Program-made: the position numbers and the translations under genes | NCBI GenBank assembly: GCA_963756595.1 | Contig: CAVWOZ010000017.1 | Span: 26,597 to 90,596 of the forward strand | Direction of reading: 5' to 3' | From: an uncultured Acidobacteriota bacterium | GTDB taxonomy: Bacteria; Acidobacteriota; Thermoanaerobaculia; Multivoradales; UBA5704 | DNA: 64,000 nt | The notes under the pieces: model-generated | Told to the model about the DNA's origin: nothing | Database searches by the model: none | The model's input: the letters and a program-made list of their open reading frames with translations, nothing else | Part shown: one piece after another, positions 8,161 to 24,761 of the stretch | Layout of the letters: every line of letters begins with the position of its first letter | How positions within the stretch are numbered: the stretch's first letter is position 1

Positions 8161-9163
8161 CTGAGGAGCGGAGCCCGATGTTCGGGAGAAACCGCGTGTT
8201 GGATGAGCCATTTTCGACGCTTTCCTGATGCTCCAAAAAGGCCGTCGAAAACGCCCGGCCGCATGCGGCCGTGTGGCAGGCATGCCGACCGGCGCTCTTC
8301 GACGCGACGGCCGCCCGCCTGCTCCTGCTCTCGTTTCCTCGCGAAGCTTCCCCGCCGCCGATCGATGGGCGCGCTCTCCACGAGGACGTTCCCGGGGCCC
8401 GAGCCTGACTGGCGCGTCTGCCTCAGCGACCTGACGGTTGCCGAGGCCGAGCGACGGCGCATTCGCGGACGAGATCGAACCCCCTGCGCCGCGCCATCGG
8501 GGATCGACCGGACAGGCATCGGTCCCCATGCGGAACCCCCGAGATCCCACCGACCTGCCACGTGCCCAGTGGCTCCACGTCCCCATCGCCTCGTCAACCG
8601 AGCAACCTCCGCGCCGGCCCTGGGCACGGCGAGGAGTCCTTCGGACCGCGCACCCCGGAGTGGCCACCGGAGCCTCGCCAGCCTCGCTGAGCTCCTCTAG
8701 GACACCCTCCGCCTCCAGATTCGAGCGCCGCAGCCATTTGAGGAGCCACACCCTTGAGATCGACGAAGAGGCCCTCGGGTCGACGTCTTCCTGAAGCCAC
8801 AACGGCCGCACGAACCGGCCGCGGCTCTTCGTGAAATCCACCGTCCTGCCCTACGAAGAGACGTCCCGCCGTCCCCGTGGCCTGCAGAGGTTCTCGTTAT
8901 GCGCTGGGAACGTCTCTCCGGGACGGTTGCACGAGGTCGGAGCGACGGCGCGTTTCCGGACGTAGGATCGGTCCCCCTGCGGAACCGTCGGGGTCACGAC
9001 GACGTGCCCGTAGAGACGCTCCCAGCGATGAACGAGAACGCGACGCAGGCCATGGGGACGGCGGGCGTCTCTTCGCAGGGCAGGACGCACCGGGATTCGC
9101 GGGCGCCCTGATCTCTGCACCCTCCCGGCTCCGCTCAACCGCACCCATTTCAGGAGAACACCT

Positions 9164-11517
9164 TTGGCGGATGAAACCTTCGACGTCTTCCTGAGCCACA
9201 ACAGCCGCGACAAACCCGCGGTGATCGAGATCGCCGAGGCGCTGCGGCGACAAGCGCGGCCTCAAGGTCTGGCTCGACGACTGGGAGTCTGCCGCCGGGC
9301 CGGCCGCTGGATCGACGGCTCTAGAGGCCGTCCTCAAGACCGTCCGATCGGCGCTGTATTCATCGGCAAGGACGGGCTGGGGCCCTGGGAGACCCCGAGA
9401 TGCGGGCGCCCTGAACGAGATGGTCCGCCGAAGGCTGCCGGTGATCCCCGTCCTTCTGCCTGGGGCGCCGGCGAAGTCTCCCGAGCTCCCCCTCTTCCTA
9501 CCCAGAATCACCTGGGTCGAACTCCGGAGCGGCCTCACCGAGGACGGGCTGGACCGGCTGCAATGGGGAATCACCGGCGAGAAGCCGGAGCTTCGCCGAC
9601 CGTCCCCCGCCCCACCGCCCCCCGCCGCCACAACCTCCCCTTCCCCAGCCTGGGAGACCTCTTCAAAGGGCGCGACGCCGAGCTTCGCACCTTGAGCGAC
9701 GGTCCGGCGACCGCGATCACCCAGGCGCAGACGCTCTTTGGCCTCGGCGGCATCGGCAAGACCCGGCTGGCCGTCGAGCACGCCTGGCGCTCGGGGGACC
9801 GGTACGACAAGGCGCTCTTCGTGGTGGCGGAATCGCCGCAGGCGCTCCGCTCCAACCTGGCGCAGCTCGCCCGGCCGGACCTCCTCGATCTGCCGCAACA
9901 CGAGACGGCCTCCGAAGAGAGCAACGTGGAGGCCGTCCTGGGCTGGCTGCAGGAGCACGACCGGTGGCTGGTGATCCTCGACAACGTGGACACCCCGGAA
10001 GCGGAAAAGGCGGTCCTGGAGATCCTTCCGTCCCTCGCCACGGGGCGCGTCCTCATCACCTCCCGGCTCCGGGAATGGCCGGCGAGCGTCCGGAGACAGC
10101 CGCTCGAGCTCCTCGGCCCGGAAGAAGCCCAGCGTTTCCTCCTGGAGCGCACGGCGAACGACCGCGGAGAGCAGGACGATCCGGAAACCGCCCGCCGGCT
10201 GGCCGAGACGCTGGGGTACCTTCCTCTCGCGTTGGAACAGGCGTCGGCGTACATCGCCCATCACCAGATGAGCCTCTCCGACTATCTGGAGGAGTGGCAA
10301 CGCGAGCGGGAGAAGGTCCTGCGCTGGTACAGAGCAGACGTCATGCAATATCCCGACTCCCTCGCCGTGACCTGGCAAAAGACGTTTCAGCAGCTCAGCC
10401 CCACGGCCGCGACGATCCTCCGCCTGTCCGCCTACCTTGCGCCCGAGCCCATCCCGGTGGAGATGTTCGAGCAGGGGGCGTCGATCGTCGAGGAGTCCGT
10501 CCAAGCCTTTTGCGAGGAAACCGGGGTTGAGGCCGGCGATTCATCGATCCAGTCCGCCCTCGCCGATCTCGCCGCCTTCTCGATGGCGACCCGCGCCGGG
10601 AGCGAGCTTCGTGGTTCACCGGATGGTGCAGGAGGTCCTGAGATCCAGCCTTCCCGAAGAGCACCGGCGAGATTGGATCGAGCGCTCCCTGCGGTTGGTC
10701 AACGATTACTCGCCAGCCGATCCTGATGATGTGCGGACCTGGCCGGTATGGGATCCGCTTGCGGCCGCATGCGGCGGTCGTCGTTCAACATGCCGATGCT
10801 GCCGCCATTTTCAGCCCTACAAGCAGATTGATGATTCAACTGGCGGTCTTTCTGTTGGCAAAATCACTCTACAACGAAGCTGAGCCTTTGATGCGGCGCG
10901 CTCTCGAGATCGATCAACAGGTCTTTGGTGAAAATCATCTAAAGGTCGCGGACTGACTCAACAACCTGGCTCAGTTGCTTAAGGCCACCAACCGCCCGGC
11001 CGAAGCCGAGCCCTTGATGCGGCGCGCCCTCCAGATCGACCAACAAGCCTTCGGTGAAAATCACCCAAACGTCGCCATCCGACTCAACAACTTGGCTCAG
11101 TTGCTTAGGGCTACCCACCGCCTGGACGAAGCTGAGCCCTTGATGGTGCAGGCTCTCCAGATCTTCGAGCAGGCCTTCGGTGAAAATCACCCAAACGTCG
11201 CCATAGAGCTCAGCAACCTGGCTGCGTTGCTTCAGGCCACTAACCGCCTAGCCGAAGCCGAGCCCTTAATGCGGCGCGCCCTCCAGATCGACCAACAAGC
11301 CTTCGGTGAAAATCACCCAAACGTCGCCATCCGACTCAACAACTTGGCTCAGTTGCTTAGGGCTACCCACCGCCTGGACGAAGCCGAGCCCTTGCAGCGG
11401 CACGCTCTGGCCGTCTTTGAACAGAGCCTGGGGCCAGGGCACCCAAACACCGGGATCTTGCGCAGGAACCTGGACGCTCTGCTAGCGGAGATCGCCGCGG
11501 AGTCCCAACAGGGATGA
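9164..11517 (+). pseudogene. Decayed TIR-NB-ARC-TPR (STAND NTPase) gene, copy 1, with multiple frameshifts and an in-frame stop
   Basis: TTG start at 9164 with an AGGAG SD (MADETFDVFLSHNSRDKPAV = TIR N-terminus). The TIR domain is broken by at least two frameshifts; it continues in the ORF at 9420-9695 (MVRRRLPVIPVLLPGAP...LDRLQWGITG). The NB-ARC P-loop GLGGIGKTRLA is intact. Further frameshifts fall near 10610 and 10726, and an in-frame TGA at 10955 interrupts a TPR repeat (KVAD*LNNLAQLL). TPR_10/12 repeats continue to 11517. Confidence 0.7.
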
Positions 11518-11637
11518 GAGGCGCCCATCGGCCTCTCTTCGAAGGGCCAGCCACACCGAAACAGAATCCCCCGGAGAGACACGACGTTCTGGACGCTACT
11601 GTACCCTGCAGCTCATCCTTTTTCAGGAGGCCCACCC

Positions 11638-14263
11638 TTGACGGATGACATCTTCGACGTCTTCCTGAGCCACAACAGCCGCGACAAGCCCGCCGTGATC
11701 CGGATCGCGGAGGCGTTGCGCGACCGCCGCGGCCTCAGGGTCTGGCTCGACGTCTGGGAGCTGCCGCCGGGGCGGCCGTGGCAGGAGGCGCTCGAGACGA
11801 TCCTGCGCACGGTGCGCTCGGCGGCGATCCTGGTCGGGCAGGACGGGCTGGGGCCTTGGGAGATCCCGGAAATGCGGGCGGCGCTGAACGAGATGGTGCG
11901 GCGCCAGATGCCGGTGATCCCCGTGCTGCTCCCGGGCGCTCCGCGCTCTCCGGAGCTCCCGTTCTTCCTGGCCCAGAACACCTGGGTGGACCTGCGCGAC
12001 GGCCTCTCCGAGGAGGGGCTCGACCGGCTGCAATGGGGGATCACGGGGACGCGGCCGCCGCTGCGGCCGGTGCCGTACCGGGCGGTGGCGCCGCGCCTCC
12101 ACAACCTCCCTTTCTCCTCGCTCGGCGACCTGCTCAAGGGGCGCGACGACGAGCTGCGGAGCCTCGACGCGGCGGGGCAGACGACGGCGATCACCCAGGC
12201 GCAGACGATCTCGGGGCTCGGCGGCATCGGCAAGACGCGGCTCGCCGTCGAGTACGCCTGGCGCTCGGGGGAGCGCTACGACGCGGCGTTCTTCGTCGTC
12301 GCCGAGTCGCCGCAGGCGCTGCGCGCCAACCTCGCGCATCTCGGCCGGCCGGAGCTCCTCGACCTGCCGGAGCATGGGACGGCGGCCGAGCAGAGCCTCG
12401 GGGCGGTGCTGCGCTGGCTGCGCGAGCACGAGCGCTGGCTGGTGATCCTCGACAACGTCGACACCCCGGAGGCGCAGGCCGCCGTGATGGAGATCCTGCC
12501 GTCGCTCGCGGCCGGCCGCGTCCTCATCACCTCGCGCATCCGCGACTGGGCGCCGGTCGTCGAGCGCGCAGATCCTCGCACGGCTGGGGCCGGACGAGGC
12601 GCAGCGCTACCTCCTCGACCGCACCGCCGGCGACCGCGTCACGACCGCCGACGACCGCGACCTCGCCGCCCGGCTGGCCGACAAGCTCGGCGGCCTGCCG
12701 CTCGCGCTCGCCCAGGCCGCCGCCTACATCGCCCACTACCAGACGAGCCTCGCCGACTACCTGGAGACCTGGCAGAAGGAGCGCGACGAGGTCCTCACCT
12801 GGCACGACCCCGCCGTGATGCAGTATCCCGCCTCGGTCGCCGCGACCTGGCAGACGACCTTCCGCCAGCTCTGCCCGCGGGCGACCGCCGTCCTCCGCCT
12901 CGCGGCCTTCCTGGCGTCCGATCCCATCCCGGTCGCGATCTTCGAGCAGGGGGAGGCGATCGTCGCCGAGGCGGTGGCGCTGCTCGGCGAGGAGACCGGG
13001 AACCCTCCGGGCGAGCCGACCCTGAAGGACGCGATCGCCGGCCTCGCCGCCTGCTCGCTGGTGACGCGGAAGGAGACGAGCTTCACGGTGCACCGCATGG
13101 TGCAGGAGGTGCTGCGGGCCGGGGTGCCGGCGCGGCGGCGGCGCGACTGGATCGAGCGCTCCCTGCGCCTGGTGGCCGCCTTCTGCCCGGCGGAGTCGGA
13201 CGACGTGCGCACCTGGCAGACCTGGGACGTGCTGCGCCCGCACGCGGCGCGGATCGTGCGCTTCGCGGATCACGAGGGGATCCACCATCCTACCTCGGAG
13301 CTGATGAGCCGCCTCGCGCTCCTCTACTTCAGCAAGGGGCTGGCCGGCGAGGCCGAGCCGCTGATGCGGCGGGCGCTCCAGATCGAGGAGAGCTGCTTCG
13401 GCCCCCAGGACCCGAACGTCGCGAGCCGCCTCAACAACCTCGCCCTCCTCCTCCAGGACACCAACCGCCTGGCCGACGCCGAGCCCCTGCTGCGCCGCGC
13501 CCTGCGCATCGACGAGGCCGCCTACGGCCCGCGCCACCCAGACGTCGCCCGCGACCTCAACAACCTCGCCCAGCTCCTCCACGACGCCGACCGCCCCGCG
13601 GACGCCGAGCCGCTGCTGCGCCGCGCCCTGGCGATCGACGAGCGCGCCTTCGGCCCCACCCACCCGAACGTCGCCATCCGCCTCAACCATCTCGCCCGCC
13701 TCCTCCAGGCGACGGGCCGGCTGGCCGACGCCGAGCCGCTGATCCGGCGCGCCCTCGAGATCGACGAGACCGCCTTCGGCCCGCAGCATCCCGAGATCGC
13801 CATCGACCTCAACAACCTCGCCCAGCTCCTCCAGGCGACCGGCCGCCTCGCCGAAGCCGAGCCGCTGCTGCAACGCGCCCTGGCGATCGACGAGGCCGCC
13901 TGCGGCCCGCAGCACCCGAACGTCGCCATCCGCCTCAACAACCTCGCCCGCCTCTTGAGCGCCGCCGGCCGTCTCCCCGACGCCGAGCCCCTGATGCGCC
14001 GCGCCCTGGAGATCGACGAGCGAACCCTCGGAGCCCACCACCCCGACGTCGCCCTCGTCCTCAACAACCTGGCGCTGCTGCTGGAGGAGACCCACCGCCC
14101 CCACGAGGCCGAGTCCCTGATGCGAAGGGCGGTCGAGATCTTCGAGGGGAGTCTGGGGACGGATCACCCGAAGACGCGGACGGCACGGAAGAATTTGACG
14201 GCGCTGTGCAAGGCGAACGTTTGTGAGGAGGCGGGGGTGGGAGGGGGCGGGACGCAGGGATAG
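11638..14263 (+). CDS. TIR-NB-ARC-TPR STAND NTPase, copy 2, with a single +1 frameshift near 12565
   Basis: TTG start at 11638 with an AGGAG SD (MTDDIFDVFLSHNSRDKPAV). It has an intact TIR domain, a P-loop GLGGIGKTRLAVEYAW, and the RVLITSR (hhhTTR-like) motif. The frame switches from frame 1 to frame 2 at about 12565 (VVER | QILARLGPDEAQRYLL), then continues intact to 14263 with about eight kinesin-light-chain-type TPR repeats (AEAEPLxRRALxIDExxxGPxHPNVAxxLNNLAxLL). Collinear with copy 1. Confidence 0.75.
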
Positions 14264-14936: not shown

Positions 14937-16640
14937 TCAGACCTCGCTCAGGTACTGGTGGATGAAGGAGATGGTGATCGACCCCTCGCCGACGCCGGAG
15001 GCGACGCGCTTGACCGAGCCGTGGCGGACGTCGCCGGCGACGAAGACCCCGGGGACGCTGGTCTCGAGCAGGTAGGGGTCGCGGTCGGGCTGCCAGCCGG
15101 CGGGGCGCTTGCCGTCCGGCATCAGGTCGGGGCCGGAGAGGATGAACCCCTTGTCGTCGCGGGCGACCACCCCTTCGAGCCAGCGGGTGCGCGGCTGGGC
15201 GCCGATGAAGATGAAGAGGGAGCGGGCGGGGTGGCGGATGGTCTCCCCCGTCTCCGAATTGTGGACGTCGATCGCCTCGAGGTGCTCGTCGCCGTGGGCC
15301 TCGGCGACGTTCGAGCGGCTCCAGACCTCGATGTTCGAGGTGGCGCCGATCTGGTCGATCAGGTACTGCGACATCGACTTGTTGAGCGACTCGCCGCGCA
15401 CCAGCATGATCACCCGCCGCGCGTACTTGGCGAAGAACATCGCCGCCTGCCCCGCCGAGTTGGCGCCGCCGACCACGAAGACGTCCTCGTCGCCGCACCC
15501 CATCGCCTCGGTCATCGCGGCGCCGTAGTAGACGCCGGCGCCGGTGAGCTTCTCGACGCCGGGGACGTCGAGCTTGCGGTAGGAGACGCCGGTGGCGATC
15601 AGCAGGGCGTGGCAGCTCACCTCGCGGTCGTCGCCGAGGGTGAGGATGCGGTAGGAGTCCTCGAGGCGCAGCCGCTTCGCCTCCTGCGGGGCCAGGATCT
15701 CGACGCCGAAGCGCTGCGCCTGGGTGACGGCGCGGCGGGCGAGGTCGGCGCCGGAGAGCCCGGAGGGGAAGCCGAGGTAGTTCTCGATCCGCGAGCTGGT
15801 CCCCGCCTGGCCGCCGGGGGCGTGCCCCTCGATCATCAGCGTGCGCAGCCCCTCCGAGGCGCCGTACACCGCCGCCGCCAGCCCCGACGGCCCGCCGCCG
15901 ACGATCGCCAGGTCGTAGAACGGCCGCTCGGCCTGGGTGCGCAGCCCCACCTTGGCCGCCAGCTCCGCGCGGGTGGGCTTGGCGAGGTGCGTGCCGTCGG
16001 CGAGGACGACCAGGGGGAGGAGATCGGCCGGGGACTCGGCGGGGGGATCGGCGGGCTCGCCCGCCTTCCGCTCCGCCTGGAGCGCCGCCAGCAGCTCGAC
16101 CCCCTCGGGATTCTCCTCGACGTCGAGCCAGCGGTAGGGGACCTGGTTGCGGGCCAGGAAGTCGCGGATCTGGAAGGCGTCCGGCGACCAGCGGTGGCCG
16201 AGCACGCGCACCCCCTCGAACGGCGGCCGGAAGGCGGCCTGCCAGTCGGCGAGGAGGTCGTCGAGCACCGGATAGAGGAGCTGCTCGGGAGGGTTCCACG
16301 GCTTCATCAGGTAGTAGTCGACGCGCGCCGTGTTGATGGCGCGGATGGCGGCGTCGGTGTCGGCGTAGGCGGTGAGCAGCACCCGCTTGGCGGCGGGAAA
16401 GAGGGGGATCGCCGCCTCGAGGAACTCGACGCCGGTCATCTGCGGCATCCGCTGATCGACCAGGAAGAGGGCGACGGGCGTCGTGCGCACCTTGAGCTGC
16501 TCGAGCGCCTCGAGCGCCTGCGGCCCCGAGCTCGCCCGCATCACCCGGTAGGCCTCGCCATACTGCCGCCGCAGGTCGCGGTCCACCGCGCGCAGCACCT
16601 CGGGGTCGTCGTCGATCGCGAACAGGACGGGCTTGGCCAT
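14937..16640 (-). CDS. Response-regulator receiver domain fused to a thioredoxin-reductase-like FAD/NAD(P)-binding oxidoreductase
   Basis: N-terminal CheY-like receiver (VLFAIDDDPEVLRAV...LVDQRMPQMTGVEF...KPW). C-terminal half has a dinucleotide-binding fold, IVGGGPSGLAAAVYGASEG, and a second GxGxxG, VFVVGGANSAGQAA. The TrxR redox-active CxxC is absent (AMGCGDEDV instead). The likely start is the ATG at 16640 (MAKPVLF); the longest ORF runs to 16682. Confidence 0.75.
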   Translation of the reverse strand: MAKPVLFAIDDDPEVLRAVDRDLRRQYGEAYRVMRASSGPQALEALEQLKVRTTPVALFLVDQRMPQMTGVEFLEAAIPLFPAAKRVLLTAYADTDAAIRAINTARVDYYLMKPWNPPEQLLYPVLDDLLADWQAAFRPPFEGVRVLGHRWSPDAFQIRDFLARNQVPYRWLDVEENPEGVELLAALQAERKAGEPADPPAESPADLLPLVVLADGTHLAKPTRAELAAKVGLRTQAERPFYDLAIVGGGPSGLAAAVYGASEGLRTLMIEGHAPGGQAGTSSRIENYLGFPSGLSGADLARRAVTQAQRFGVEILAPQEAKRLRLEDSYRILTLGDDREVSCHALLIATGVSYRKLDVPGVEKLTGAGVYYGAAMTEAMGCGDEDVFVVGGANSAGQAAMFFAKYARRVIMLVRGESLNKSMSQYLIDQIGATSNIEVWSRSNVAEAHGDEHLEAIDVHNSETGETIRHPARSLFIFIGAQPRTRWLEGVVARDDKGFILSGPDLMPDGKRPAGWQPDRDPYLLETSVPGVFVAGDVRHGSVKRVASGVGEGSITISFIHQYLSEV

Positions 16641-16700
16641 GGGTTCTCGGGTCTCCGCGGAGGAATATACCCGAGGTGTCAAGGGGGAGAGCTCGCAGGG

Positions 16701-16845
16701 CCCCGCCCGGGCATGAATGCCCGGGCTACAGTGGAAACGAAAAGCCGGCTGAAGCCGGCTCCGAAATCAAGGTTTCTCCTCCAGGAGCCGGGTTCACCCG
16801 GCTTTTTGGTCGCAGCGTAGCCCGGGCATTCATGCCCGGGCGGGG
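16701..16845. repeat. MITE-like palindromic element, copy A (about 145 bp, 29-bp perfect terminal inverted repeats)
   Basis: The inverted-repeat ends are CCCCGCCCGGGCATGAATGCCCGGGCTAC and GTAGCCCGGGCATTCATGCCCGGGCGGGG. Internal sub-hairpins are AGCCGGCTGAAGCCGGCT and AGCCGGGTTCACCCGGCT. About 85% identical to the copy at 24597-24739. Confidence 0.65.
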
Positions 16846-16895
16846 CCATGCCACCTCCTTCACGAGGTAGGAAGCCGCCAGCCGTGGGAGCCTTT

Positions 16896-17006
16896 CTCCT
16901 CCCCCGTACTCGGGGGAGGCCGGGAGGGGGTGCTCGCAGGCTGAGACGCTTCCTTGGTTGGAACGTTGCGGGCCCCCTCCTGACCTCCCCCGAGTACGGG
17001 GGAGGA
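16896..17006. repeat. Second palindromic element in the same intergenic region (24-bp inverted repeats about 65 bp apart)
   Basis: CTCCTCCCCCGTACTCGGGGGAGG (16896-16919) and its reverse complement CCTCCCCCGAGTACGGGGGAGGA (16984-17006). Confidence 0.55.
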
Positions 17007-17172
17007 AAAAAGCAACGCAGCTCTCCGGCGTAGGGGTTGGAGGCCCCGGCATCCGCTCCCCCCCCAACCCTGGCACCGCCTTCGCTTACAATACCCGGTC
17101 GACGCGGAGCGCGGGGCGGAACCAGGCGTAAGGGCCGCTGCCGATCCTAGGGGAACGCAGGTCTTCGAGGAA

Positions 17173-18771
17173 ATGGATCAGGCAGGCTTGAGACAAAAAA
17201 TTGGAACTTTTTGCAGCGTTCTGGCCCTTCTCGGGCAGTGGGCGGCCATGGCCCAATCGCCGCAATCGCCGCAGCCACGCCCGGTGGCGCCGGCCAGCCC
17301 TCCCCCATCCTCGGCCTCTGCGGACGCCCCCCACAAGACGGTGCTGCTGTCGATCGACGACGCTCTGCGCATCGGCTCGGGGGAGAGCGAGGCGGTGTGG
17401 ATCGCCGAGGCGGGGGTGATGCGGGCGGTGGGGACCGAGATGACCACGCGCAGCACCCTCTTCCCGCAGCTCTCGGCGAACGGCGCCTACATCCGGACGC
17501 TGCGCAGCCAGTTCGGCAACATCAAGATCCCGGCGGGCCCCGGCGGCGGGACCGAGACGCTCCCGTTCGGCCAGAAGAACGAGTACTCGCTGGGGCTCAA
17601 CTTCTCGCAGCTGATCTTCGACGGCCAGACCCTGCCGCGCACCAAGGCGTCCGAGTCGCGGCGGCGCTCGGCGGAGATCAACGCCGACTCGGCGCGGGCG
17701 GAGGCGCTGCTCGACCTCACCGGCGCCTACTACGACGCCCTGCTGGGCGAGCGGCTGGTGGCGATCGCCGAGGCGTCGCTCGCGCAGCAGGACGAGATCC
17801 TGCGCCAGACGACGGTGGCCCAGCAGGTGGGGGACAAGTCGGAGTTCGAGCTGCTCCAGGCGCGCGTCTCGCGCGACAACCAGCTGCCGCAGGTCCTGCA
17901 GAGCCGCAACCAGCGCCAGGTCTCCTACCTGCGCCTGAAGCAGCTCCTCAACCTGCCGCTCACCGACGAGCTGCAGCTCACCTCGCCGCTCGAGGAGCTG
18001 CCGGCCCGCTTCGCGGCCCCCGCCGACCTGTCGACCGAGGCGCGGGCGCCGGTGCGCCAGGCGCAGGAGGAGGTGACGGCGAACCAGTCGCTGCTCACCG
18101 CCGCCAAGGGGGAGCGCTGGCCGACCCTCTCGCTCGCTTCGAACTACAACCCGGTGGCCTACCCGAGCGGCCTACCCACCTACGGCGACTTCCTCACCAA
18201 CTGGTCGGTGACGCTGAGCGTCTCGGTGCCGATCCTGAACGGCGGCCGACTCGCCGGCGACGAGCTGACGGCGCGCGGCAACCTGTCGACGGCGCGGGCG
18301 GAGCTCCAGCAGACCCGCAAGGCGGCGGAGCTCGACGTCGAGACCTCGCGCCTCAACCTCGCCAACGCCGAGGCGATCCTGAAGAGCAACGAGGGGACCG
18401 TCGACTCGGCCCGCCGCGGCTGGGAGATCGCGCAGCTGCGCTACCGCGAGGGGCTGGGGAGCCAGATCGAGCTGCAGAACGCCCGCCTCCTCTTCGAGCA
18501 GTCCGAGGTCAACCGGGCGCAGGCGCTGCGCGACGTGCAGGTGGCGCGCGCCCGCCTCGCCCTGATCCGCGACCTGCCGGTGACAGCGGGCAACGGCGCC
18601 GGCAACGCCACGGCGCAGAACGGCGCGAACGGCTTCGGGAACGGGAGCGGGAGCAACGGCATCGCCGCCGGATCGTCACAGCCCGCGCAGACGTCGCAGC
18701 CGCAGACCGGGCAACCGTCCACGAGCCCCGGCACGACGGGAACCACCATCCCCGGAGTCTCCCCGCCATGA
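17173..18771 (+). CDS. Outer-membrane efflux protein (TolC/OprM family outer membrane factor)
   Basis: Signal peptide, then two repeats of the OEP coiled-coil/beta-barrel pattern. The stop overlaps the start of the next gene (ATGA), giving a three-gene efflux operon. Confidence 0.8.
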   Translation: MDQAGLRQKIGTFCSVLALLGQWAAMAQSPQSPQPRPVAPASPPPSSASADAPHKTVLLSIDDALRIGSGESEAVWIAEAGVMRAVGTEMTTRSTLFPQLSANGAYIRTLRSQFGNIKIPAGPGGGTETLPFGQKNEYSLGLNFSQLIFDGQTLPRTKASESRRRSAEINADSARAEALLDLTGAYYDALLGERLVAIAEASLAQQDEILRQTTVAQQVGDKSEFELLQARVSRDNQLPQVLQSRNQRQVSYLRLKQLLNLPLTDELQLTSPLEELPARFAAPADLSTEARAPVRQAQEEVTANQSLLTAAKGERWPTLSLASNYNPVAYPSGLPTYGDFLTNWSVTLSVSVPILNGGRLAGDELTARGNLSTARAELQQTRKAAELDVETSRLNLANAEAILKSNEGTVDSARRGWEIAQLRYREGLGSQIELQNARLLFEQSEVNRAQALRDVQVARARLALIRDLPVTAGNGAGNATAQNGANGFGNGSGSNGIAAGSSQPAQTSQPQTGQPSTSPGTTGTTIPGVSPP

Positions 18772-19928
18772 GATGCAACCGCCTGACACTCCGGACCCTG
18801 ACTGCGCTCCTCGCCCTGCTCCTGCTCGCCGCCGCCGGCTGCAAGAAGGGAGGCGACGCCGCCGCCAAAACGGGGAAAGATGGCAAGCCCGCTCTCCCTC
18901 CCACCATGGCGCTCGGCCCCGAGGACACGGCAGTGGTGACGCCGGGCGCGGTCGAGAACGGCCCGGCCCTCACCGGCACGCTGACGGCGCAGCGCCAGGC
19001 GTCGATCCGCGCCCAGATCGCCGGGTCGGTGCTGACGGTGACCGCCGAGCCCGGGCAGGCGGTGACCAGGGGCGAGACCCTCGCCCGCCTCGATTCGAGC
19101 TCGCTGACCGACGCCTACAACTCGGCGCGCTCGAACGCCGCCAGCGCCAAGAGCGCCCTGGCGGTCGCCGAGCGCGAGGCGGCGCGCCAGGAGACGCTGG
19201 TCAAGGCGGGCGCGGTGGCGCAGAGGAACGTCGAGACGGCGCAGCAGTCCGTGGTGCAGGCGCGGGCCACCCTCTCCCAGGCCCAGGCGCAGATCGCCAG
19301 CGCCGAAAAGCAGCTCGCCAACACCACCGTCACGGCCCCGTTCTCCGGGGTGGTCAGCGAGCGGCCGGTGTCGGCCGGCGACGTGGTGCAGCCCGGCACC
19401 AGCCTCTACACGGTGGTCGATCCGTCGAGCCTCCAGCTCGAGGCGGCGATCCCCGCCGAGCAGCTCGCCTCGCTCAAGGTGGGGTCGCCGGTGCGCTTCA
19501 CCATCACCGGCTACGGCGACCGCACCTTCAAGGGAGCGATCACGCGGATCAATCCGAGCGCCGACCCCACCACCCGCCAGGTGCGGGTCTACGCCGAGAT
19601 CCCCAACCCGGGCGGCCTGGTGGCCGGCCTCTACGCCGAGGGGCGGGTGGAGAGTGAGTCGCGCCACGGGCTGACCCTGCCGATGGCGGCGATCGACCGC
19701 CGGATGGCGAAGCCGGCGGTGCTCCTGGTGCGCGACGGCAAGGTGGCGCGGGTCGACGTCGAGCTCGGCCTCGCCGACGAGAAGGCGCAGCGGGTCGAGG
19801 TGCTGCGCGGCGTCGCGGCCGGCGACGTGGTCCTCCTCGGCGCCGCGCAGGAGATCGCGCCGGGGACGCCGGTGACCCTGCCGCCGTCGGTGCAGCAGGC
19901 GGCGGAGAGGCTGGCGCAGACGCTATGA
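18768..19928 (+). CDS. RND efflux membrane fusion protein (HlyD/AcrA family), lipoprotein
   Basis: ATG at 18768 with a lipobox LLAAAGC. Biotinyl-lipoyl-like hairpin (TVTAPFSGVV) and beta-barrel domains. The 905-aa ORF listed from 17211 is a spurious upstream extension in the same frame. Confidence 0.8.
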   Translation: MRCNRLTLRTLTALLALLLLAAAGCKKGGDAAAKTGKDGKPALPPTMALGPEDTAVVTPGAVENGPALTGTLTAQRQASIRAQIAGSVLTVTAEPGQAVTRGETLARLDSSSLTDAYNSARSNAASAKSALAVAEREAARQETLVKAGAVAQRNVETAQQSVVQARATLSQAQAQIASAEKQLANTTVTAPFSGVVSERPVSAGDVVQPGTSLYTVVDPSSLQLEAAIPAEQLASLKVGSPVRFTITGYGDRTFKGAITRINPSADPTTRQVRVYAEIPNPGGLVAGLYAEGRVESESRHGLTLPMAAIDRRMAKPAVLLVRDGKVARVDVELGLADEKAQRVEVLRGVAAGDVVLLGAAQEIAPGTPVTLPPSVQQAAERLAQTL

Positions 19929-22900
19929 CGATCTCCGATTTCGCCATCAAGCGCCCGATCGTCACCGTGGTGGTGATGCTGGCGCTGGTCATCTTCGGCA
20001 TCTTCGCCCTCTTCCAGATCGACGTCGACGAGTTCCCCGACCTCTCGAACCCGATCGTCTTCGTCTCCGTCCCCTACCCCGGCGCCTCGCCGTCGCAGGT
20101 CGAGCAGGAGGTGGTGGAACGGATGGAGGAGGCGTTCAGCGGCCTGTCGGGGATCGACGAGATCCGCTCCACCTCGCTCGACGGCTTCGCCACCATCACC
20201 GTGCAGTTCGTCTTCGGCAAGGACCCCGACCAGGCGGCGCAGGACGTGCGCGACGCCATCTCGGGGATCCGCAACGACCTGCCGACCGAGATGAAGGAGC
20301 CGGTGCTCAAGAAGTTCGACCCCGACGACTTCCCCATCGTCTCGCTCGTCCTCGCCTCCGACCGCCTGTCGCCGGCCGAGATGACCCTGCTCGCCGACCC
20401 CGGGATCACCCGCGTCCTGCGCGGCATCAACGGCGTCGCGCAGGTGACGGTGGTCGGCGGCGCCGACCGCGAGATCTCGGTCGACATCCGGCCGAACGAC
20501 ATGGCGGCGTCGGGGGTGACGGTGTCGCAGGTCTTCGCGGCGGTCGCGGCGCAGAACCTGGCGTCGCCGGTCGGCCAGCTCCAGGGGCGGCTGACCGAGC
20601 AGGCGATCCGCCTGCGCGGCCGGCTCGAGACCCCCGAGGACTTCGCGCGGCTGGTGGTCGGCTCGCACAACGGCCAGCTCATCCGCCTCGGCGAGGTGGC
20701 GAACGTGCGCGACGGCACCACCGAGCAGCGCTCGCTCGCCCTCTTCAACGGCCAGCTCGCGGTCGGCATCGACATCACCAAGTCGAAGGGGGCGAGCACC
20801 ACCAAGGTCGCCGACGCCATCAAGGCGGCGATCCAGAAGATCCAGCCCACCCTGCCGCCGGGGGTGAAGATGTCGGTGGTGCGCGACGCCGGCGAGCGGG
20901 TGCGCCAGTCGGTGCGCAACGTCGAGGAGGCGCTGATCGAGGGCGCTCTCCTCACCGTGCTGGTGGTCTTCGTGTTCCTCAACTCCTGGCGCTCGACGGT
21001 GATCACCGGCCTCGCGCTGCCGGTCTCCGTGCTCAGCTCCTTCATCGCGGTGTGGGCCTGCGGCTTCACGCTCAACACCATGTCTCTCCTCGGCCTCTCG
21101 CTCGCCATCGGCATCCTGATCGACGACGCCATCGTGGTGCGGGAGAACATCGTGCGCCACGTCGAGATGGGCAAGGACCACATGGAGGCGGCGCACGTCG
21201 GCACCAACGAGATCACCATGGCGGTGGCGGCCACCACCTTCTCGATCGTGGCGGTGTTCGCGCCGGTCGCCTTCATGCAGGGGATCGCCGGGCAGTGGTT
21301 CAAGCCGTTCGCGCTGACCATCGCCTGCGCCGTTCTCGTCTCCCTCTTCGTCTCCTTCTCGCTCGACCCGATGCTCTCCGCCTACTGGCCGGACCCGCAG
21401 CTCGAGGCGCACGAGCGGAAGAACGTGATCGCGCGGGCGCTCGACCGCTTCAACCAGTGGTTCGACCGCATGGCCGACCGCTACAAGGGGCTGGTCGCCT
21501 GGGCGCTCGACCACCGGCTGGCGGTGCTGGCGATCGTGGCGGTGTCGTTCTTCGGGGCGATCGCCCTCCAGGTCTTCTTCGGCGGCGGCGGCTTCATCCC
21601 GGACAGCGACCGCTCGGAGATCACCCTGTCGATCGAGACCCCGCCGGGGTCGAACCTGAGCTACACGGCGATCAAGGCGCGCGAGCTCTCCGCCATCGCC
21701 CGCACCCACAAGGAAGTGGCCTACACCTACACCAGCATCGGCAGCGCCACCGGCTCGGGGGACGTCGACACCGGCAGCCTCTACATCAAGATGGTGCCCA
21801 AGAAGCAGCGCGACATCTCGCAGCAGGCGCTCGCCGCCCAGCTGCGCACCGAGACGGCGCGGGTCGCCGGCGTCACCACCTACCTCTCGCAGCAGGGGGG
21901 GCCGGGGGGCAACCAGCGGCAGATCCAGGTGCAGCTGCGCGGCCAGAACATGGCGAGCCTCAGCAAGGCGGCGCTGGCGATCGAGGGTGAGATGCGCAAG
22001 GTCAAGGGGGCGACCGACATCGGCCTCTCCACCCGCGGCGACCGCCCCGAGCTCGAGGTGCAGCTCAACCGCGGCCTCGCCGGCAGCCTGGGGCTCAACG
22101 TCAGCCAGGTGGCGCAGTCGATGCGCCCCGCCTTCGCCGGCGTCAAGGCGGGAGACTGGATCGATCCCCTCGGCAAGACCCGCGACGTCACCGTCCGCCT
22201 CGCCCCCGAGGCGCGGGCGAACGTCGCCGACATCGAGAGGCTGCCGCTGGTGGTGAGCGGCGGCGGCTCGGCGGCGGCGGCGGCTCAGGGCGGCGCGGCG
22301 GGCTGCGGCGGGAGCGGCGGCAGGCGCCCCGATCGCGTCCGGCGGCGGCGCGCCGTCGCTGATCCCGCTCGGCCAGGTGGCGACGATCACCAACAGCACC
22401 GGCCCGGCGCAGATCGATCACCTCGACCGCGACAAGGTGGTGACGGTGGGGGGCAACGTCGCCGGGCGCTCGCTCTCCGAGGTGACGCGCGACCTCAACA
22501 AGCGGGTGGCGAAGCTCCACCTGCCGGCCGGCGTCTCCCTGTCGCAGGGGGGCGAGGTGAAGAACCAGAACGAGGTCTTCGGCAAGATCTTCGCCGCCCT
22601 GGCCCTCGCCGTGCTGATGATGTACCTGATCCTGGTCGTCCAGTTCGGCTCGTTCCTCGACCCGCTGGCGATCCTCCTCTCGCTGCCGCTGTCGCTGGTC
22701 GGCGTCGTGCTGATGCTGCTGATCACCCACGACACCCTCAACCTGATGAGCCTGATCGGCGTCATCCTCCTGATGGGGATCGTGGCCAAGAACGCCATCC
22801 TGCTGATCGACTTCGCGAAGTGGAACCACGAAAAGGGGATGCCGCTGCGCGACGCCCTGATCGAAGCCGGCCGCGTCCGCCTCCGCCCCATCCTGATGAC

Positions 22901-23149
22901 CACCGTCGCCCTCATCGCCGGCATGATCCCCGTCGCCATGGGGCTCGGCGAAGGCGCCGACTTCCGCGCCCCGCTCGGCCGCGCGGTGATCGGCGGCACC
23001 ATCACCTCGACCCTGCTCACCTTGCTGGTGATCCCGACGATCTACGAGATTTTGGTGGAGACGCGGGAGAAGGTCTTGGGGTGGTTCGGGCGGGGGAAGA
23101 AGGCGGGGGCGGCGGCCACCCCGGAAGCCGCCGTGGTGAAGTCTTGAAA
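19925..23149 (+). CDS. RND efflux pump (AcrB/HAE1 family), frameshifted at about 22260-22330
   Basis: The N-terminal 780 aa are in frame 2 (MTISDFAIKRPIVTVVVML...). The C-terminal roughly 270 aa, including TM7-12 and the RND C-terminus, are in frame 0 (ORF 22377-23147; ...APSLIPLGQVATITNSTGPAQIDHLDRDKVVTVGGNVAGRSL...). The switch falls inside a GGC/GCG-repeat tract encoding an unusual Gly/Ala-rich insert (VVSGGGSAAAAAQGGAAG...). Confidence 0.8.
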
Positions 23150-23202
23150 CCGACACGCCGGTGACCCCGGCGGCAGGGCGGCAGGGAGATCGGGGCCGCC
23201 CA

Positions 23203-24402
23203 CTATCCGCTTGATAGCGTGGGGTAAGATACGGCGAGAGGCGCCAGATCGGTATTGATCCGCGACAACGACAGGGCTCGCACATTTTCCGCGAGAGGAA
23301 ACGTGTGCTCGCCGGCATGGACCATGTCGAGGCTGTCGAGCTTCAGGTCGGCGAGAGCGATGTGGATCGATCGGGTGATTCGGGGCGCGTCGCTGTACTT
23401 GAATTCGAAGCCGAGCCTCCGGCCGCCACGCACGACGAGAAGGTCGAGCTCGGCGCCGCTATGAGTCGACCAGAAGAAGCATTCTCTGGGCCGCGCACCC
23501 AAGCGGGCGATCACCTCCGCCAAGCCAAAGCCTTCCCAGGAGGCTCCAATCTTGGGGTGTCCCGCCAGGTCGGCAAAAGTCTCCAGGTTGAGGAGTGTGT
23601 GCAGGAGCCCGCTGTCGATGATGTAGACCTTGGGGGATTTGACCTGGCGCTTCTGGAGATTCTCGTGCCAGGGCGTAAGCTGGCGGATGACGAGAGCGCC
23701 GGTGAGGACATCGCGATAGCGGGCCACGGTCGTATCCGAGACTCCGAAGGCGCGGGCGAGCTCAGAGCTGTTCCAGATCTGCCCGTGGTAGTGGGCGATC
23801 ATGGTCCAGAATCGCCCCAAGGTCGTCCCGGGTATCTGGATGCCGAGCTGCGCGAGATCGCGCTCCAGGAAAGTCCGCACGAACTGGTGCCGCCAGTCAG
23901 CGCTGAGAACGTCGGACGGCGCCAGGAAGGAGCAGGGGAAACCGCCGCGCAGCCAGAGGGTGCGCAACGCGCCCTCCCCAACTTCCGCGAGGGTGAAGCC
24001 TTCGAGATCGTGGAAGGCGATCCGCCCGGCAAGAGATTCAGAACTCTGTTGCAGGAGGTCCTGGCTCGCACTGCCCAGAACGAGGAAACGGGCAGGAATT
24101 TCCGGCCGGTCTGCCAGCACGCGCAGGATGGGAAAGATCTCGGGAAGGCGCTGAATTTCGTCCAAGACGACGAGCCCCCGAAGCTCGCGCAATGCAAGCA
24201 GCGGATTGGCGAGCCGCGCGAGGTCAGCCGGATCTTCAAGGTCAAACAAGGTAGTCGGCCCAGGGTACCGGGCCAGAAGCTGCCGGGCCATCGTCGTCTT
24301 ACCAGTCTGCCGCGGGCCTAGAATGGCGACCACCGGGAAGCGCTGAAGGAGTCCTTCCAGAGTGAGGAGATGCTGGGCTCGCTCGATCACGGGAGCTATC
24401 AT
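23203..24402 (-). CDS. AAA+ ATPase with C-terminal DUF4143 domain
   Basis: P-loop GPRQTGKTT, Walker B VVLDEIQ, and the DUF4143 region (YIIDSGLLHTLL). The probable start is the ATG at 24402 (MIAPVIERAQ...); the longest ORF runs to 24612. Confidence 0.7.
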   Translation of the reverse strand: MIAPVIERAQHLLTLEGLLQRFPVVAILGPRQTGKTTMARQLLARYPGPTTLFDLEDPADLARLANPLLALRELRGLVVLDEIQRLPEIFPILRVLADRPEIPARFLVLGSASQDLLQQSSESLAGRIAFHDLEGFTLAEVGEGALRTLWLRGGFPCSFLAPSDVLSADWRHQFVRTFLERDLAQLGIQIPGTTLGRFWTMIAHYHGQIWNSSELARAFGVSDTTVARYRDVLTGALVIRQLTPWHENLQKRQVKSPKVYIIDSGLLHTLLNLETFADLAGHPKIGASWEGFGLAEVIARLGARPRECFFWSTHSGAELDLLVVRGGRRLGFEFKYSDAPRITRSIHIALADLKLDSLDMVHAGEHTFPLAENVRALSLSRINTDLAPLAVSYPTLSSG

Positions 24403-24596
24403 ACCTTGAAAACTCGGCGCCACCCACCGAGATTTCAAGGCACTTCTTGGCAGGTCCATGGAAAATTCGACGTCTTCGGCCGAGATTTCAAGGATGGAAG
24501 AAGCAGGCCGGTCGGCGGCGGACGCAGGAAAGGCCGAGCCGGCGGGGGCGGCGGGCGGGCACTGAGCGGCGAGACCCGTCCACACGACCAGCGCTT

Positions 24597-24739
24597 CCCG
24601 CCCGGGCATCAATGCCCGGGCTACGTCCGCAACGAAAAGCCGGCTGAAGCCGGCTCCGAAGTAACGGCGATCTTCCAGGAGCCGGGTTCACCCGGCTTTT
24701 CGGTCCAAGCGTAGACCGGGCATTGATGCCCGGGCGGGG
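24597..24739. repeat. MITE-like palindromic element, copy B
   Basis: The inverted-repeat ends are CCCGCCCGGGCATCAATGCCCGGGCTAC and GTAGACCGGGCATTGATGCCCGGGCGGGG. The internal AGCCGGCTGAAGCCGGCT and AGCCGGGTTCACCCGGCT blocks match copy A at 16701-16845. Lies between the convergent AAA-ATPase and VWA genes. Confidence 0.65.
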
Positions 24740-24761
24740 CCGAGGCACCTGACAGACGTCC

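What the first reader, a model, noticed from the sequence alone, without database searches (positions are those of the whole stretch)
16701..17006. Two stacked palindromic mobile-element-like repeats in the divergent promoter region between the RR-flavoprotein gene and the efflux operon
A 145-bp element with perfect 29-bp terminal inverted repeats (CCCCGCCCGGGCATGAATGCCCGGGCTAC) and internal sub-hairpins is followed 50 bp later by a second element with 24-bp inverted repeats (CTCCTCCCCCGTACTCGGGGGAGG). These look like non-autonomous MITE/REP-type elements that have landed in a regulatory region. They could supply terminators, RNA stability elements or promoter spacing for the TolC-MFP-RND operon.
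Basis: seen in the sequence. Interest (0 to 1): 0.55.

Follow-up and report, generated by a model that had tools for sequence, protein, structure and literature searches.

The report
Two stacked mobile palindromic repeat elements
Two small palindromic "junk-DNA" repeats, one clearly a recent insertion, sit between two back-to-back genes; they belong to repeat families scattered through soil Acidobacteria, and one family appears to be spread by a small single-strand-DNA transposase. This is an ordinary kind of bacterial repeat in a group where it had not been described.

Summary
E1 (16701-16845) has perfect 29-nt inverted ends. E2 (16886-17013) has 41-nt arms, each built around a perfect 22-nt hairpin.

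E1 is a dispersed repeat. A second copy lies at 24597-24740, and I found 107 related places in 841 kb from more than 25 Thermoanaerobaculia/Acidobacteriota MAGs. A syntenic relative at about 93% nucleotide identity (L150) lacks E1 at both window sites but keeps E2. More distant relatives have only a 116-168 nt spacer with neither element.

E1 consists of two GTAG-tagged REP hairpins in inverted orientation, tags inward, around two terminator-like hairpins. Compensatory changes support four local hairpins. In relatives, an IS200-class Y1 transposase gene sits inside the same frame: REP-CTAC-hairpin, tnpA, hairpin plus T-tract, GTAG-REP. So E1 is a REPIN-like, non-autonomous derivative of a REPtron.

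E2 is a second dispersed palindromic family. It occurs in non-orthologous contexts, has no GTAG tag, no T-tracts after its hairpins, and no transposase found.

The elements lie between the two conserved promoter-like blocks, so at this site they are probably neutral spacers or insulators rather than operon terminators.

Verdict: new member of a known kind, of modest interest.

The parts
16701..16845 (.). E1: a 145-nt REPIN-like element, i.e. an inverted dimer of GTAG-tagged REP hairpins with a structured spacer
   Evidence: Perfect 29-nt inverted ends. nhmmer E = 4e-38 to the family model. Absent from the orthologous site in L150.
16705..16726 (.). Left REP hairpin GCCCGGGCAT-GA-ATGCCCGGGC. 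The inner tag CTAC lies at 16726-16729 and the outer CCCC at 16701-16704.
   Evidence: The tag is nearly invariant in 38 family members. Compensatory changes occur within the hairpin.
16739..16760 (-). Left internal stem-loop AGCCGGC-TGAA-GCCGGCT preceded by AAAA. Read on the - strand it is a hairpin followed by UUUUCG, i.e. terminator-like.
   Evidence: Sequence. RNA fold -15.2 kcal/mol. 99.6% of cells paired across the family. Not called by the simple terminator scan.
16786..16810 (+). Right internal stem-loop AGCCGGG-TTCA-CCCGGCT followed by TTTTTGGT, terminator-like on the + strand. It is homologous to the hairpin directly after the tnpA stop codon in L155 and L157.
   Evidence: -18 kcal/mol. 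Three stem positions show 8, 9 and 19 double-sided changes in 38 sequences. Position after tnpA.
16817..16845 (.). Right end: GTAG tag (16817-16820), REP hairpin GCCCGGGCAT-TC-ATGCCCGGGC (16820-16841) and outer GGGG
16689..16864 (.). The block present in the window but absent from the close relative L150. It comprises 12 nt, E1, then about 19 nt. No direct repeat is seen at the junctions.
   Evidence: Pairwise alignment A2; BLAST synteny
16886..17013 (.). E2: a 128-nt palindromic repeat of a second family, with 41-nt arms around a 42-nt, less conserved centre
   Evidence: Matches of 84-88% identity in the non-orthologous metagenome contigs L136, L139, L143 and L147. Conserved in L150 with 37 and 41 identical arm bases while the centre has diverged. 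Absent in L151, L152 and L154.
16898..16919 (.). E2 left hairpin CCTCCCCCG-TACT-CGGGGGAGG, with a T-rich tract on its outer (5') side
16984..17005 (.). E2 right hairpin CCTCCCCCG-AGTA-CGGGGGAGG, followed by AAAAAA
24597..24740 (.). Second E1 copy: 87% identical, same orientation. It starts 22 nt after the stop codon of the VWA gene (24762-27680, -) and lies upstream of an AAA_14/DUF4143 gene.
   Evidence: L150 has no E1 at the corresponding site; a DUF2252 gene lies there instead.
16662..16687 (-). Conserved block next to the response-regulator gene (CCCCCTTGACACCTCGGGTATATTCC on the - strand). E1 sits just outside it, separated by 13 nt of extra sequence.
   Evidence: Conserved in the window, L150, L151, L152 and L154. 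A promoter or operator role is inferred, not tested.
17071..17086 (+). Conserved sigma-54-like -24/-12 element TGGCACcgcctTCGCT upstream of the TolC-like gene. Both repeats lie upstream of it.
   Evidence: GG-N10-GC is kept in all seven orthologous spacers. Assignment as a promoter is by resemblance to the consensus only.

Best explanation
The 532-nt divergent spacer holds two independent insertions of non-autonomous palindromic repeats.

E1 (16701-16845) belongs to a family spread through Thermoanaerobaculia-type Acidobacteriota. It has two GTAG-tagged REP hairpins in inverted orientation with the tags facing inward. These bracket two GC-rich stem-loops, each followed in its own reading direction by a short T-tract. 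In related genomes the same frame encloses a single small IS200-class Y1 (HUH) transposase gene. The order there is REP-CTAC, A-tract plus hairpin, leader, tnpA, hairpin plus T-tract, GTAG-REP. E1 is therefore the gene-less, REPIN-like derivative of that REPtron.

Inferred steps for E1. It is copied in trans by that transposase, which would recognise the GTAG-plus-hairpin ends on single-stranded DNA and leave no target duplication. The right-hand internal hairpin is the transposase gene's own terminator, so every copy would carry a terminator-like hairpin for each direction.

E2 (16886-17013) belongs to a second, unrelated palindromic family. It entered this spacer earlier, before the window lineage and L150 split. 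Its hairpins have no GTAG tag and no T-tract after them, and its mobilising enzyme is unknown.

Both elements landed in the roughly 20-nt gap between the two conserved promoter-like blocks. Different palindromic elements fill that same gap in other lineages. At this locus the elements most likely change only the spacing between, or the insulation of, the divergent promoters. The second E1 copy, 22 nt after a stop codon, is positioned where it could terminate or stabilise a transcript.
For: Shown:
- Repeat structure and non-chance status.
- Second window copy.
Nearly all are from Thermoanaerobaculia, Holophagales or Acidobacteriota MAGs. nhmmer finds 107 places.
- The elements are essentially intergenic, often 0-50 nt after a stop codon (using a rough GC3-based gene caller).
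- Presence/absence: L150 is about 93% identical and syntenic, yet lacks E1 at both sites and keeps E2.
- The ancestral spacer is 116-168 nt with neither element (L151, L152, L154). Other palindromes fill the same gap in L120, L153 and L154.
- The four local hairpins are 99.0% paired, with 49 double-sided changes; 0 of 500 shuffles reach this. The long-stem alternative breaks wherever the stems vary.
- The GTAG/CTAC tags are nearly invariant, matching the GTAG-REP definition and the 'tail-tail dimer' form in PMC3733652.
- A Y1_Tnp gene (Pfam E = 4e-25) is flanked by E1-type ends in L032.
- Homologues fetched by protein identity: L157 sits inside a complete E1 frame, L156 has two tandem E1-like dimers starting 42 nt downstream, and L158 (52% identity) has a hairpin-ATAG-REP unit downstream. 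L155 also sits inside a complete frame, but it is the same place as the REP-seeded locus L112, so it is not an independent retrieval.
- A second, different Y1 gene with the same architecture and a different REP lies in L107.
- E2-like elements occur in unrelated contexts, for example between convergent genes in L143.
Against: - No transposase gene was found in the 64-kb window, and the source genome was not available. Trans-mobilisation in this organism is therefore inferred from relatives.
- The transposase scores as IS200/IS605 (74 bits, cut-off 55) and fails the RayT model (24 bits, cut-off 80). Classical IS200/IS605 ends are direct, not inverted.
- The simple terminator scan called neither internal hairpin. 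The T-tracts are short (TTTTYGGTT).
- Divergent spacers are not depleted among family sites in my rough survey (16 of 58 classifiable sites). A strongly terminating element might be expected to be depleted there.
- The filled and empty sites differ by about 176 nt, not 145, so the exact mobile unit and the target site are not defined.
- E2's arms are perfectly conserved between the window and L150 while its centre has diverged. That could indicate a host function.
Confidence: 0.75

Rival explanations
1. The palindromes are locus-specific regulatory DNA for the divergent genes. Under this reading E2's two 22-bp dyads are upstream activator sites for a sigma-54 enhancer-binding protein driving the TolC-MFP-RND operon, and E1 is an operator or attenuator.
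For: A conserved sigma-54-like TGGCAC-N5-TCGCT element lies at 17071-17086. Taking transcription to start about 12 nt downstream of that element, the E2 dyads are centred roughly 190 and 100 nt upstream of the start. E2's arms are identical in the window and L150 while the centre has diverged.
Against: - E1 is absent from L150, and E2 is absent from L151, L152 and L154. All of these keep the same genes and promoter-like blocks.
- Both elements recur in unrelated gene contexts.
- I scanned only the genes between 8.8 and 27.7 kb and saw no enhancer-binding protein gene there.
- Secondary co-option of E2 is not excluded.
Confidence: 0.08
2. E1 is primarily a host-maintained bidirectional transcription terminator or mRNA-stabilising module. 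Its spread reflects selection for that function, and the transposase association is incidental.
For: - There are two GC-rich hairpins with conserved T-tracts, one for each direction, and strong compensatory change in the stems.
- Many copies lie 0-50 nt after stop codons, including the window copy at 24597.
- In L155 and L157 the right-hand hairpin directly follows the tnpA stop codon.
Against: - The copy in this finding lies between divergent promoters, where nothing needs terminating.
- Divergent sites are not depleted.
- The most conserved parts are the GTAG-REP ends, which a terminator does not need.
- The terminator scan does not call the hairpins.
- This is better seen as a side-effect or later exaptation than as an alternative origin.
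Confidence: 0.12
3. E1 encodes a small structured RNA (sRNA) gene present in many copies.
For: The fold is very stable (-125 kcal/mol, z = -14) and the hairpins show covariation.
Against: - No Rfam family reaches its gathering score. The only hits are spurious miRNA-precursor models matching a long hairpin.
- No promoter-like site was found.
- Copies occur in both orientations relative to their neighbours.
- The near-perfect two-fold symmetry and the transposase-framing arrangement fit a DNA-level element.
Confidence: 0.03

Closest known systems
GTAG-tagged REP elements, REP dimers (BIMEs, REPINs) and REPtrons (Nunvar 2010; Bertels & Rainey 2011, PMC3116915; Di Nocera et al. 2013, PMC3733652; Quentin et al. 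2018, PMC6006769)
   Same: - A 22-nt palindrome carries a GTAG tetranucleotide at one end.
- Units are paired in inverted orientation with the tags inside, the 'TT dimer' of PMC3733652.
- The spacer contains stem-loops, as described there for some A. tumefaciens dimers.
- Copies are many, dispersed and intergenic.
- A Y1/HUH transposase gene is flanked by the same units (a REPtron).
- No target duplication is seen.
- The stem GTAGCCCGGGCA resembles the REPs flanking a Desulfatibacillum alkenivorans tnpA-REP gene listed in the supplement of PMC6006769.
   Different: - The associated transposase fits the IS200/IS605 model and fails the RayT model. Its tyrosine motif is YVENQ, not Y..NP.
- Each half-unit couples the REP to a terminator-like hairpin with a T-tract.
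- The host clade (Thermoanaerobaculia MAGs) was not, as far as I could find, covered in those surveys.
IS200/IS605 insertion sequences and their gene-less derivatives (PATEs)
   Same: The transposase is a small (about 140-150 aa) IS200-class TnpA. The ends are hairpins. No target duplication is seen. Short derivatives lack the gene.
   Different: IS200/IS605 left and right ends carry their hairpins on the same strand in direct orientation (from my own knowledge of the family). Here the ends are inverted. The transposase gene appears on one contig per cluster and shares a neighbouring gene in two genomes, L156 and L157. That resembles a domesticated RAYT more than a multi-copy IS.
Classical bacterial MITEs such as Correia elements (Neisseria), ERIC/IRU and RUP
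   Same: Size is 100-150 nt. They have terminal inverted repeats, lie between genes, can fold into a long hairpin, and are reported to affect termination or RNA stability (from my own knowledge).
   Different: Those elements are thought to be moved by DDE transposases and leave short target duplications, for example TA for Correia. No duplication is visible at the E1 filled and empty sites, and the partner enzyme here is a Y1 transposase.
TIRtrons/TIRYTs of Acidobacteria and the class 3 TnpA-Y1 genes with atypical hairpins (PMC3733652, PMC6006769)
   Same: This is a possible home for E2. Both papers describe Acidobacteria Y1 transposase genes flanked by non-GTAG inverted repeats or atypical hairpins, which can be repeated hundreds of times in a genome. 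One E2 arm has CTGA (a CnGA-type foot) 5' of the hairpin.
   Different: No transposase was found next to any E2-like copy. The other E2 arm has CCGG, and family members have CTAA. This is a lead only, not a membership claim.

Membership tests
GTAG-REP / REPIN (REP dimer) | Short (20-40 nt) palindromic unit able to form a stem-loop | tested here: met
   E1 ends: a 9-10 bp stem and 2-4 nt loop. 98.7-99.4% of cells are paired across 38 copies, with compensatory GC-to-CG and AU-to-CG changes.
GTAG-REP / REPIN (REP dimer) | Conserved GTAG tetranucleotide at one end of the palindrome | tested here: met
   E1: CTAC/GTAG is nearly invariant in alignment A3. E2: no GTAG or CGTC tag, so E2 is not filed here.
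GTAG-REP / REPIN (REP dimer) | Two units in inverted orientation forming one larger element | tested here: met
   34 exact pairs spaced 79-133 nt in the fetched loci. The tags face inward.
GTAG-REP / REPIN (REP dimer) | Many dispersed, mostly intergenic copies within a genome | tested here: inconclusive
   There are 2 copies in the 64-kb window. The copy number in the source genome could not be measured.
GTAG-REP / REPIN (REP dimer) | A Y1 transposase gene flanked by the same repeat (REPtron) | tested here: met
   Seen in L032, L155, L156, L157 and L158. It was met in relatives only; none is present in the window.
GTAG-REP / REPIN (REP dimer) | The transposase belongs to the RAYT (RayT) class | tested here: not met
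   NCBIfam REP_Tyr_transpos scores 19-25 bits against a cut-off of 80. IS200/IS605 scores 70-77 bits against a cut-off of 55.
GTAG-REP / REPIN (REP dimer) | Mobility: presence/absence at orthologous sites | tested here: met
   E1 is absent at both window sites in L150, at about 93% nucleotide identity.
Classical MITE (derivative of a DDE-transposase IS) | Target-site duplication flanking the terminal inverted repeats | tested here: not met
   There is no direct repeat at the filled and empty junctions, and no consistent flanking repeats among 34 copies.
IS200/IS605-derived PATE | Left and right ends with hairpins in direct orientation on one strand | tested here: not met
   E1's ends are inverted. 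Only the rearranged L032 copy shows direct units.
Intrinsic (Rho-independent) terminator | GC-rich stem-loop followed by a run of T | tested here: inconclusive
   The hairpins fold at -15 and -18 kcal/mol with TTTT(Y)GGTT tails, but the consensus scan does not call them. In L157 the tail is TTTTCTTTT and begins right after the tnpA stop codon. Function was not tested.
Known RNA families (Rfam 15) | Match at or above a family's gathering score | tested here: not met
   Only sub-threshold miRNA-precursor and PrrB/RsmZ hits were found.

The most novel reading that the evidence does not exclude
In Thermoanaerobaculia an IS200-class Y1 transposase, not a RAYT-class one, has been domesticated into a vertically inherited, single-copy REPtron. 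Its REPIN-like offspring each carry two opposed terminators, so the host genome is seeded with portable bidirectional terminator/insulator cassettes. The ~20-nt gap between the divergent promoters studied here is a recurrent landing pad for several such palindromic families.
Probability: 0.3. Interest if true: 0.55.

Novelty: new member of a known kind. Interest (0 to 1): 0.35.

Why it matters
REP/REPIN-transposase systems have been studied mainly in Proteobacteria such as Pseudomonas and enterobacteria.

This work gives a well-defined family in uncultured soil Acidobacteriota. It has a clean filled-versus-empty site and strong compensatory evidence for its hairpins. It also has a candidate partner enzyme that sits, by sequence, on the IS200 side of the IS200/RAYT divide.

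That makes it a useful test case for two questions: how REPIN-like populations arise from insertion sequences, and whether such elements spread ready-made terminators.

Practically, these elements explain long, very stable hairpins in intergenic DNA of these MAGs. Such hairpins can break assemblies, garble long-read consensus sequence, and mislead searches for regulatory motifs or RNA genes.

Tried and rejected
- **Rfam search of 16000-17800.** It returned only sub-threshold miRNA-precursor hits, which are artefacts of a long hairpin.
- **Promoter and terminator scan.** Nothing was called.
- **First transposase motif search.** I searched six-frame translations of 117 loci plus the window for RAYT motifs (HxH ... 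Y..NP) and found nothing. A looser IS200-type pattern found the transposases afterwards.
- **E2 as an ancestral activator site for a sigma-54 promoter.** Dropped because E2 is missing from L151, L152 and L154 and occurs in unrelated contexts.
- **A single long REPIN stem as the selected structure for E1.** Rejected because stem variants are compensated within each hairpin and break the long-range pairs. The REP loop base does correlate between the two arms (27 of 38 pairs, against roughly one third expected by chance, by my own estimate). I attribute that to subfamilies copied as whole units.
- **Widely spaced REP pairs (L032, L034, L075) as frames for a gene.** The genes between them are ordinary, for example an RtcB-like ORF.
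- **L118, the closest relative (98% protein identity).** It could not be used. Its spacer is a T/C-rich, low-complexity, degraded version, probably from consensus errors through the hairpins.
- **BLAST of E1 and E2 against PLSDB plasmids.** No match.
- **BLAST of E2 against the 841 kb of E1-seeded loci.** No match.
- **Gene-context survey.** It uses my own rough GC3-based gene caller, and 13 apparent overlaps with genes are probably miscalls. Treat those proportions as approximate.

Full report
**Observation**

The sequence is as described. E1 spans 16701-16845. Its first 29 nt (CCCCGCCCGGGCATGAATGCCCGGGCTAC) are the exact reverse complement of its last 29 nt, and the whole element is a quasi-palindrome with 74-nt arms at 85% complementarity. 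Each end contains a 22-nt palindrome, GCCCGGGCAT-NN-ATGCCCGGGC.

Inside E1 are two further hairpins:
- AAAA-AGCCGGC-TGAA-GCCGGCT at 16739-16760.
- AGCCGGG-TTCA-CCCGGCT-TTTT at 16786-16807.

E2 is built on CCTCCCCCGTACTCGGGGGAGG at 16898-16919 and its inverse at 16984-17005. The arms extend to 41 nt at 90% complementarity (16890-16930 and 16973-17013).

Shuffled controls expect essentially no such matches. Folding z-scores are -14 and -9.

Pfam confirms the context. A response-regulator/pyridine-nucleotide-disulphide oxidoreductase gene lies at 14937-16640 (-). It diverges from the OEP (TolC-like), HlyD-type MFP and AcrB-type RND genes, which start at 17173 (+).

**E1 is a dispersed repeat**

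- A second copy lies at 24597-24740. It is 87% identical and in the same orientation. It starts 22 nt after the stop codon of a VWA-domain gene and lies upstream of an AAA_14/DUF4143 gene.
Nearly all are from Thermoanaerobaculia, Holophagales or other Acidobacteriota MAGs. Many are pairs spaced 79-133 nt apart.
- An nhmmer model finds 107 places in these 841 kb. They fall into a short class (about 105 nt) and a long class (about 135-145 nt).
- None of these loci matches the window outside the element, so the source genome itself was not retrieved.
- With a rough GC3-based gene caller, the elements are essentially intergenic. In co-directional contexts they usually lie 0-50 nt after the upstream gene's stop codon.
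- Divergent spacers are not obviously avoided: 16 of 58 classifiable sites are divergent.

**Anatomy and structure**

I aligned 38 long-class copies. They share this order: outer CCCC, REP hairpin, CTAC, about 10 nt, A-tract, hairpin with loop TGAA, a variable centre, hairpin with loop TTCA, TTTT(Y)GGTT, about 5 nt, GTAG, REP hairpin, outer GGGG.

- Counting pairs for four local hairpins gives 99.0% paired cells and 49 cells changed on both sides. None of 500 shuffles reaches this.
- The right internal stem switches among GCCGGG, GCCGGC, GCCTCC, GCCGCC and GCCCCC, always compensated.
- REP stems switch between GCAT/ATGC and GGAT/ATCC or GCCT/AGGC within one hairpin, while the other arm of the same element stays unchanged.
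- The alternative of a single long stem is broken exactly where the stems vary.
- So the conserved structures are local hairpins, even though the minimum-energy fold of an isolated copy is one long hairpin (-125 kcal/mol).
- The unpaired REP loop base does correlate between the two arms (27 of 38 pairs). I read this as subfamilies being copied as whole units.

**E1 is an insertion**

Close homologues of the response-regulator protein led to syntenic loci.

- L119/L150 is a JGI contig at about 93% nucleotide identity. It has the same genes on both sides across 21 kb. It aligns to the window up to 16688 and again from 16893.
- About 30 nt in L150 replace 204 nt of the window. The pairwise alignment places the extra block at roughly 16689-16864, and E1 is absent.
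- No direct repeat flanks the block.
- At the second site, L150 has a DUF2252 gene where the window has E1 plus the AAA_14/DUF4143 gene.

**E2 is older, but also an insertion and a repeat**

- L150 carries E2 at the same place. Its arms are identical to the window's over 37 and 41 nt, while the 42-nt centre has diverged.
- More distant orthologous spacers are only 116-168 nt long (L151, L152, L154) and lack both elements.
- Those short spacers contain two conserved blocks about 20 nt apart:
  - A sigma-54-like TGGCA(C/T)-N5-TCGC(T/A) element on the TolC side (window 17071-17086).
  - CTTGACAcCTCgGgTATATTCC next to the response-regulator gene (window 16662-16687).
- In L120, L153 and L154 the same gap is filled by other palindromic elements, some of them nested. 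The gap is therefore a recurrent landing site.
- A metagenome scan for the E2 hairpin found 29 contigs.
- Four of them (L136, L139, L143, L147) carry full E2-like elements, 84-88% identical over 16886-17013. Their flanks do not match the window.
- In L143 the element lies between convergent genes, beside an ordinary terminator.
- E2 has no GTAG or CGTC tag. Its T-rich and A-rich tracts lie on the outer side of the hairpins, so neither strand reads as a hairpin followed by U's.
- No E2-like copy was found in the E1-seeded loci or elsewhere in the window.

**The partner enzyme for E1**

- In L032, a 149-aa ORF flanked by E1-type REPs is a Y1 transposase. It matches Pfam Y1_Tnp at E = 4e-25 over the full domain. 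NCBIfam IS200/IS605 scores 74 bits against a cut-off of 55. The RayT model scores only 24 bits against a cut-off of 80.
- Its family in the 5.8-billion-protein collection is small: 47 clusters, nearly all seen on one contig each. Some sources name members RayT.
- I fetched four homologues by protein identity:
  - L155 (82% identity) and L157 (66%) have tnpA inside a complete E1 frame. The order is CCCC-REP-CTAC, A-tract plus hairpin, a 60-90 nt leader, tnpA, then immediately hairpin plus T-tract, GTAG-REP-GGGG. The flanks match the short and long E1 classes respectively. L155 is the same place as the REP-seeded locus L112, so only L157 is an independent retrieval of this arrangement.
  - L156 (63%) has two tandem E1-like dimers starting 42 nt downstream. 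It shares its other neighbour, a dynamin-like GTPase gene, with L157.
  - L158 (52%, from a lower-GC organism) has a hairpin-ATAG-REP-GGGG unit downstream and a full dimer upstream.
- L107 holds a different Y1 transposase framed in the same way by another GTAG REP, GCCCTGGATTGAAATCCAGGGC, plus a stem-loop.

E1 is thus the gene-less version of a REPtron, and its right internal hairpin is the transposase gene's terminator.

**Comparison with known systems**

- The GTAG tag, the inverted pairing with tags inside ('tail-tail dimer'), the structured spacers and the transposase-framing arrangement are all features described for GTAG REPs and REPtrons (PMC3733652; PMC6006769).
- A similar stem, GGTAGCCCGGGCAG, flanks a Desulfatibacillum alkenivorans tnpA-REP gene in the latter paper's supplement.
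- The differences are the IS200-class transposase, the REP-plus-terminator half-unit, and the host clade.
- Classical MITE membership fails on the absence of a target duplication.
- IS200/IS605-derived PATE membership fails on the inverted ends.
- I found no paper describing this sequence.

**Likely function at this locus**

Both elements lie upstream of both conserved promoter-like blocks. E1 sits just upstream of the response-regulator block. Nothing needs terminating there. I infer a neutral insertion that adds about 300 nt of very stable hairpin DNA between divergent promoters, with possible insulation. The copy at 24597 is where a terminator or 3'-end stabiliser would sit. These functional statements are inferences; no expression data exist here.

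**Verdict**

The IS200-type transposase link is supported for E1 in relatives. The operon-terminator idea is not supported for this site. This is a new member of a known kind, of modest interest.

Noticed in passing
window 22240-22380 (within AcrB-type gene 19925-23164): The RND pump gene is frameshifted inside a GGC-rich low-complexity linker. Pfam ACR_tran positions 1-785 are in the frame of 19925, and positions 793-1019 are in another frame (22377-23147). L150 differs by a net 5 nt here, which would restore one frame. This is either a pseudogene or an assembly error in the window.
   Followed up: partly
window 17071-17086; also L150, L120, L151-L154: A conserved sigma-54-like -24/-12 element (TGGCAC-N5-TCGCT, with GG-N10-GC kept in all seven orthologous spacers) lies upstream of the TolC-like gene. 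It suggests an enhancer-dependent efflux operon. No activator gene was identified.
   Followed up: partly
window 16641-16687 (- strand): A conserved motif, CCCCCTTGACACCTCGGGTATATTCC, is followed by a nested palindrome (CTCGGGT...CTCCGCGGAG...ACCCGAG) just before the response-regulator start codon. The 7-nt TTGACA-to-TATATT spacing is not a canonical sigma-70 promoter.
   Followed up: no
window 23203-24459 (-): An AAA_14/DUF4143 ATPase gene with lower third-position GC (0.75 against about 0.95 for its neighbours) occupies the place of a DUF2252 gene in the relative L150. It lies next to the second E1 copy and looks like a gene replacement or acquisition.
   Followed up: partly
L107 1477-2266: A second REPtron: a different Y1 transposase (1552-2058, -) is framed by inverted GTAG REPs, GCCCTGGATTGAAATCCAGGGC, each with an adjacent stem-loop. 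One more REP follows downstream.
   Followed up: partly
L120 3567-4000; L153 1062-1500; L154 1333-1500: The same ~20-nt gap between the two conserved blocks is occupied in other lineages by other palindromic elements. L120 and L153 share outer arms CCCTCACCCCC...GGGGGTGAGGG with nested inner palindromes. L154 has a GGGACAGCAGGGAC-type inverted repeat.
   Followed up: no
L032 2440-3120: A roughly 700-nt non-coding stretch beside the transposase gene is full of repeated CTTTCACG...CGTGAAAG palindromes. I could not tell what they are.
   Followed up: no
L118 3300-4000: In the closest relative (98% protein identity) the spacer where E1 and E2 should lie is a T/C-rich, low-complexity, degraded version, and the TolC-like gene was not called. 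This is probably consensus error through strong hairpins in a long-read assembly.
   Followed up: no
window 9148-13174 versus L150: The NB-ARC/TPR genes are only 73-76% identical to L150 while neighbouring genes are about 93% identical, so this region is evolving quickly or has been rearranged. Relatives L120 and L151-L154 also have a cNMP-binding histidine-kinase-like gene after the response-regulator gene, which the window and L150 lack.
   Followed up: no
L121-L149 (metagenome contigs): The exact 22-nt E2 hairpin also heads a different, more abundant repeat (…CCTCCCCCGTACTCGGGGGAGG-GYYRGGGAGAGGGCAGGCCTTGCGAGAG…) in other soil contigs. The hairpin module is therefore shared between distinct repeat families.
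   Followed up: no
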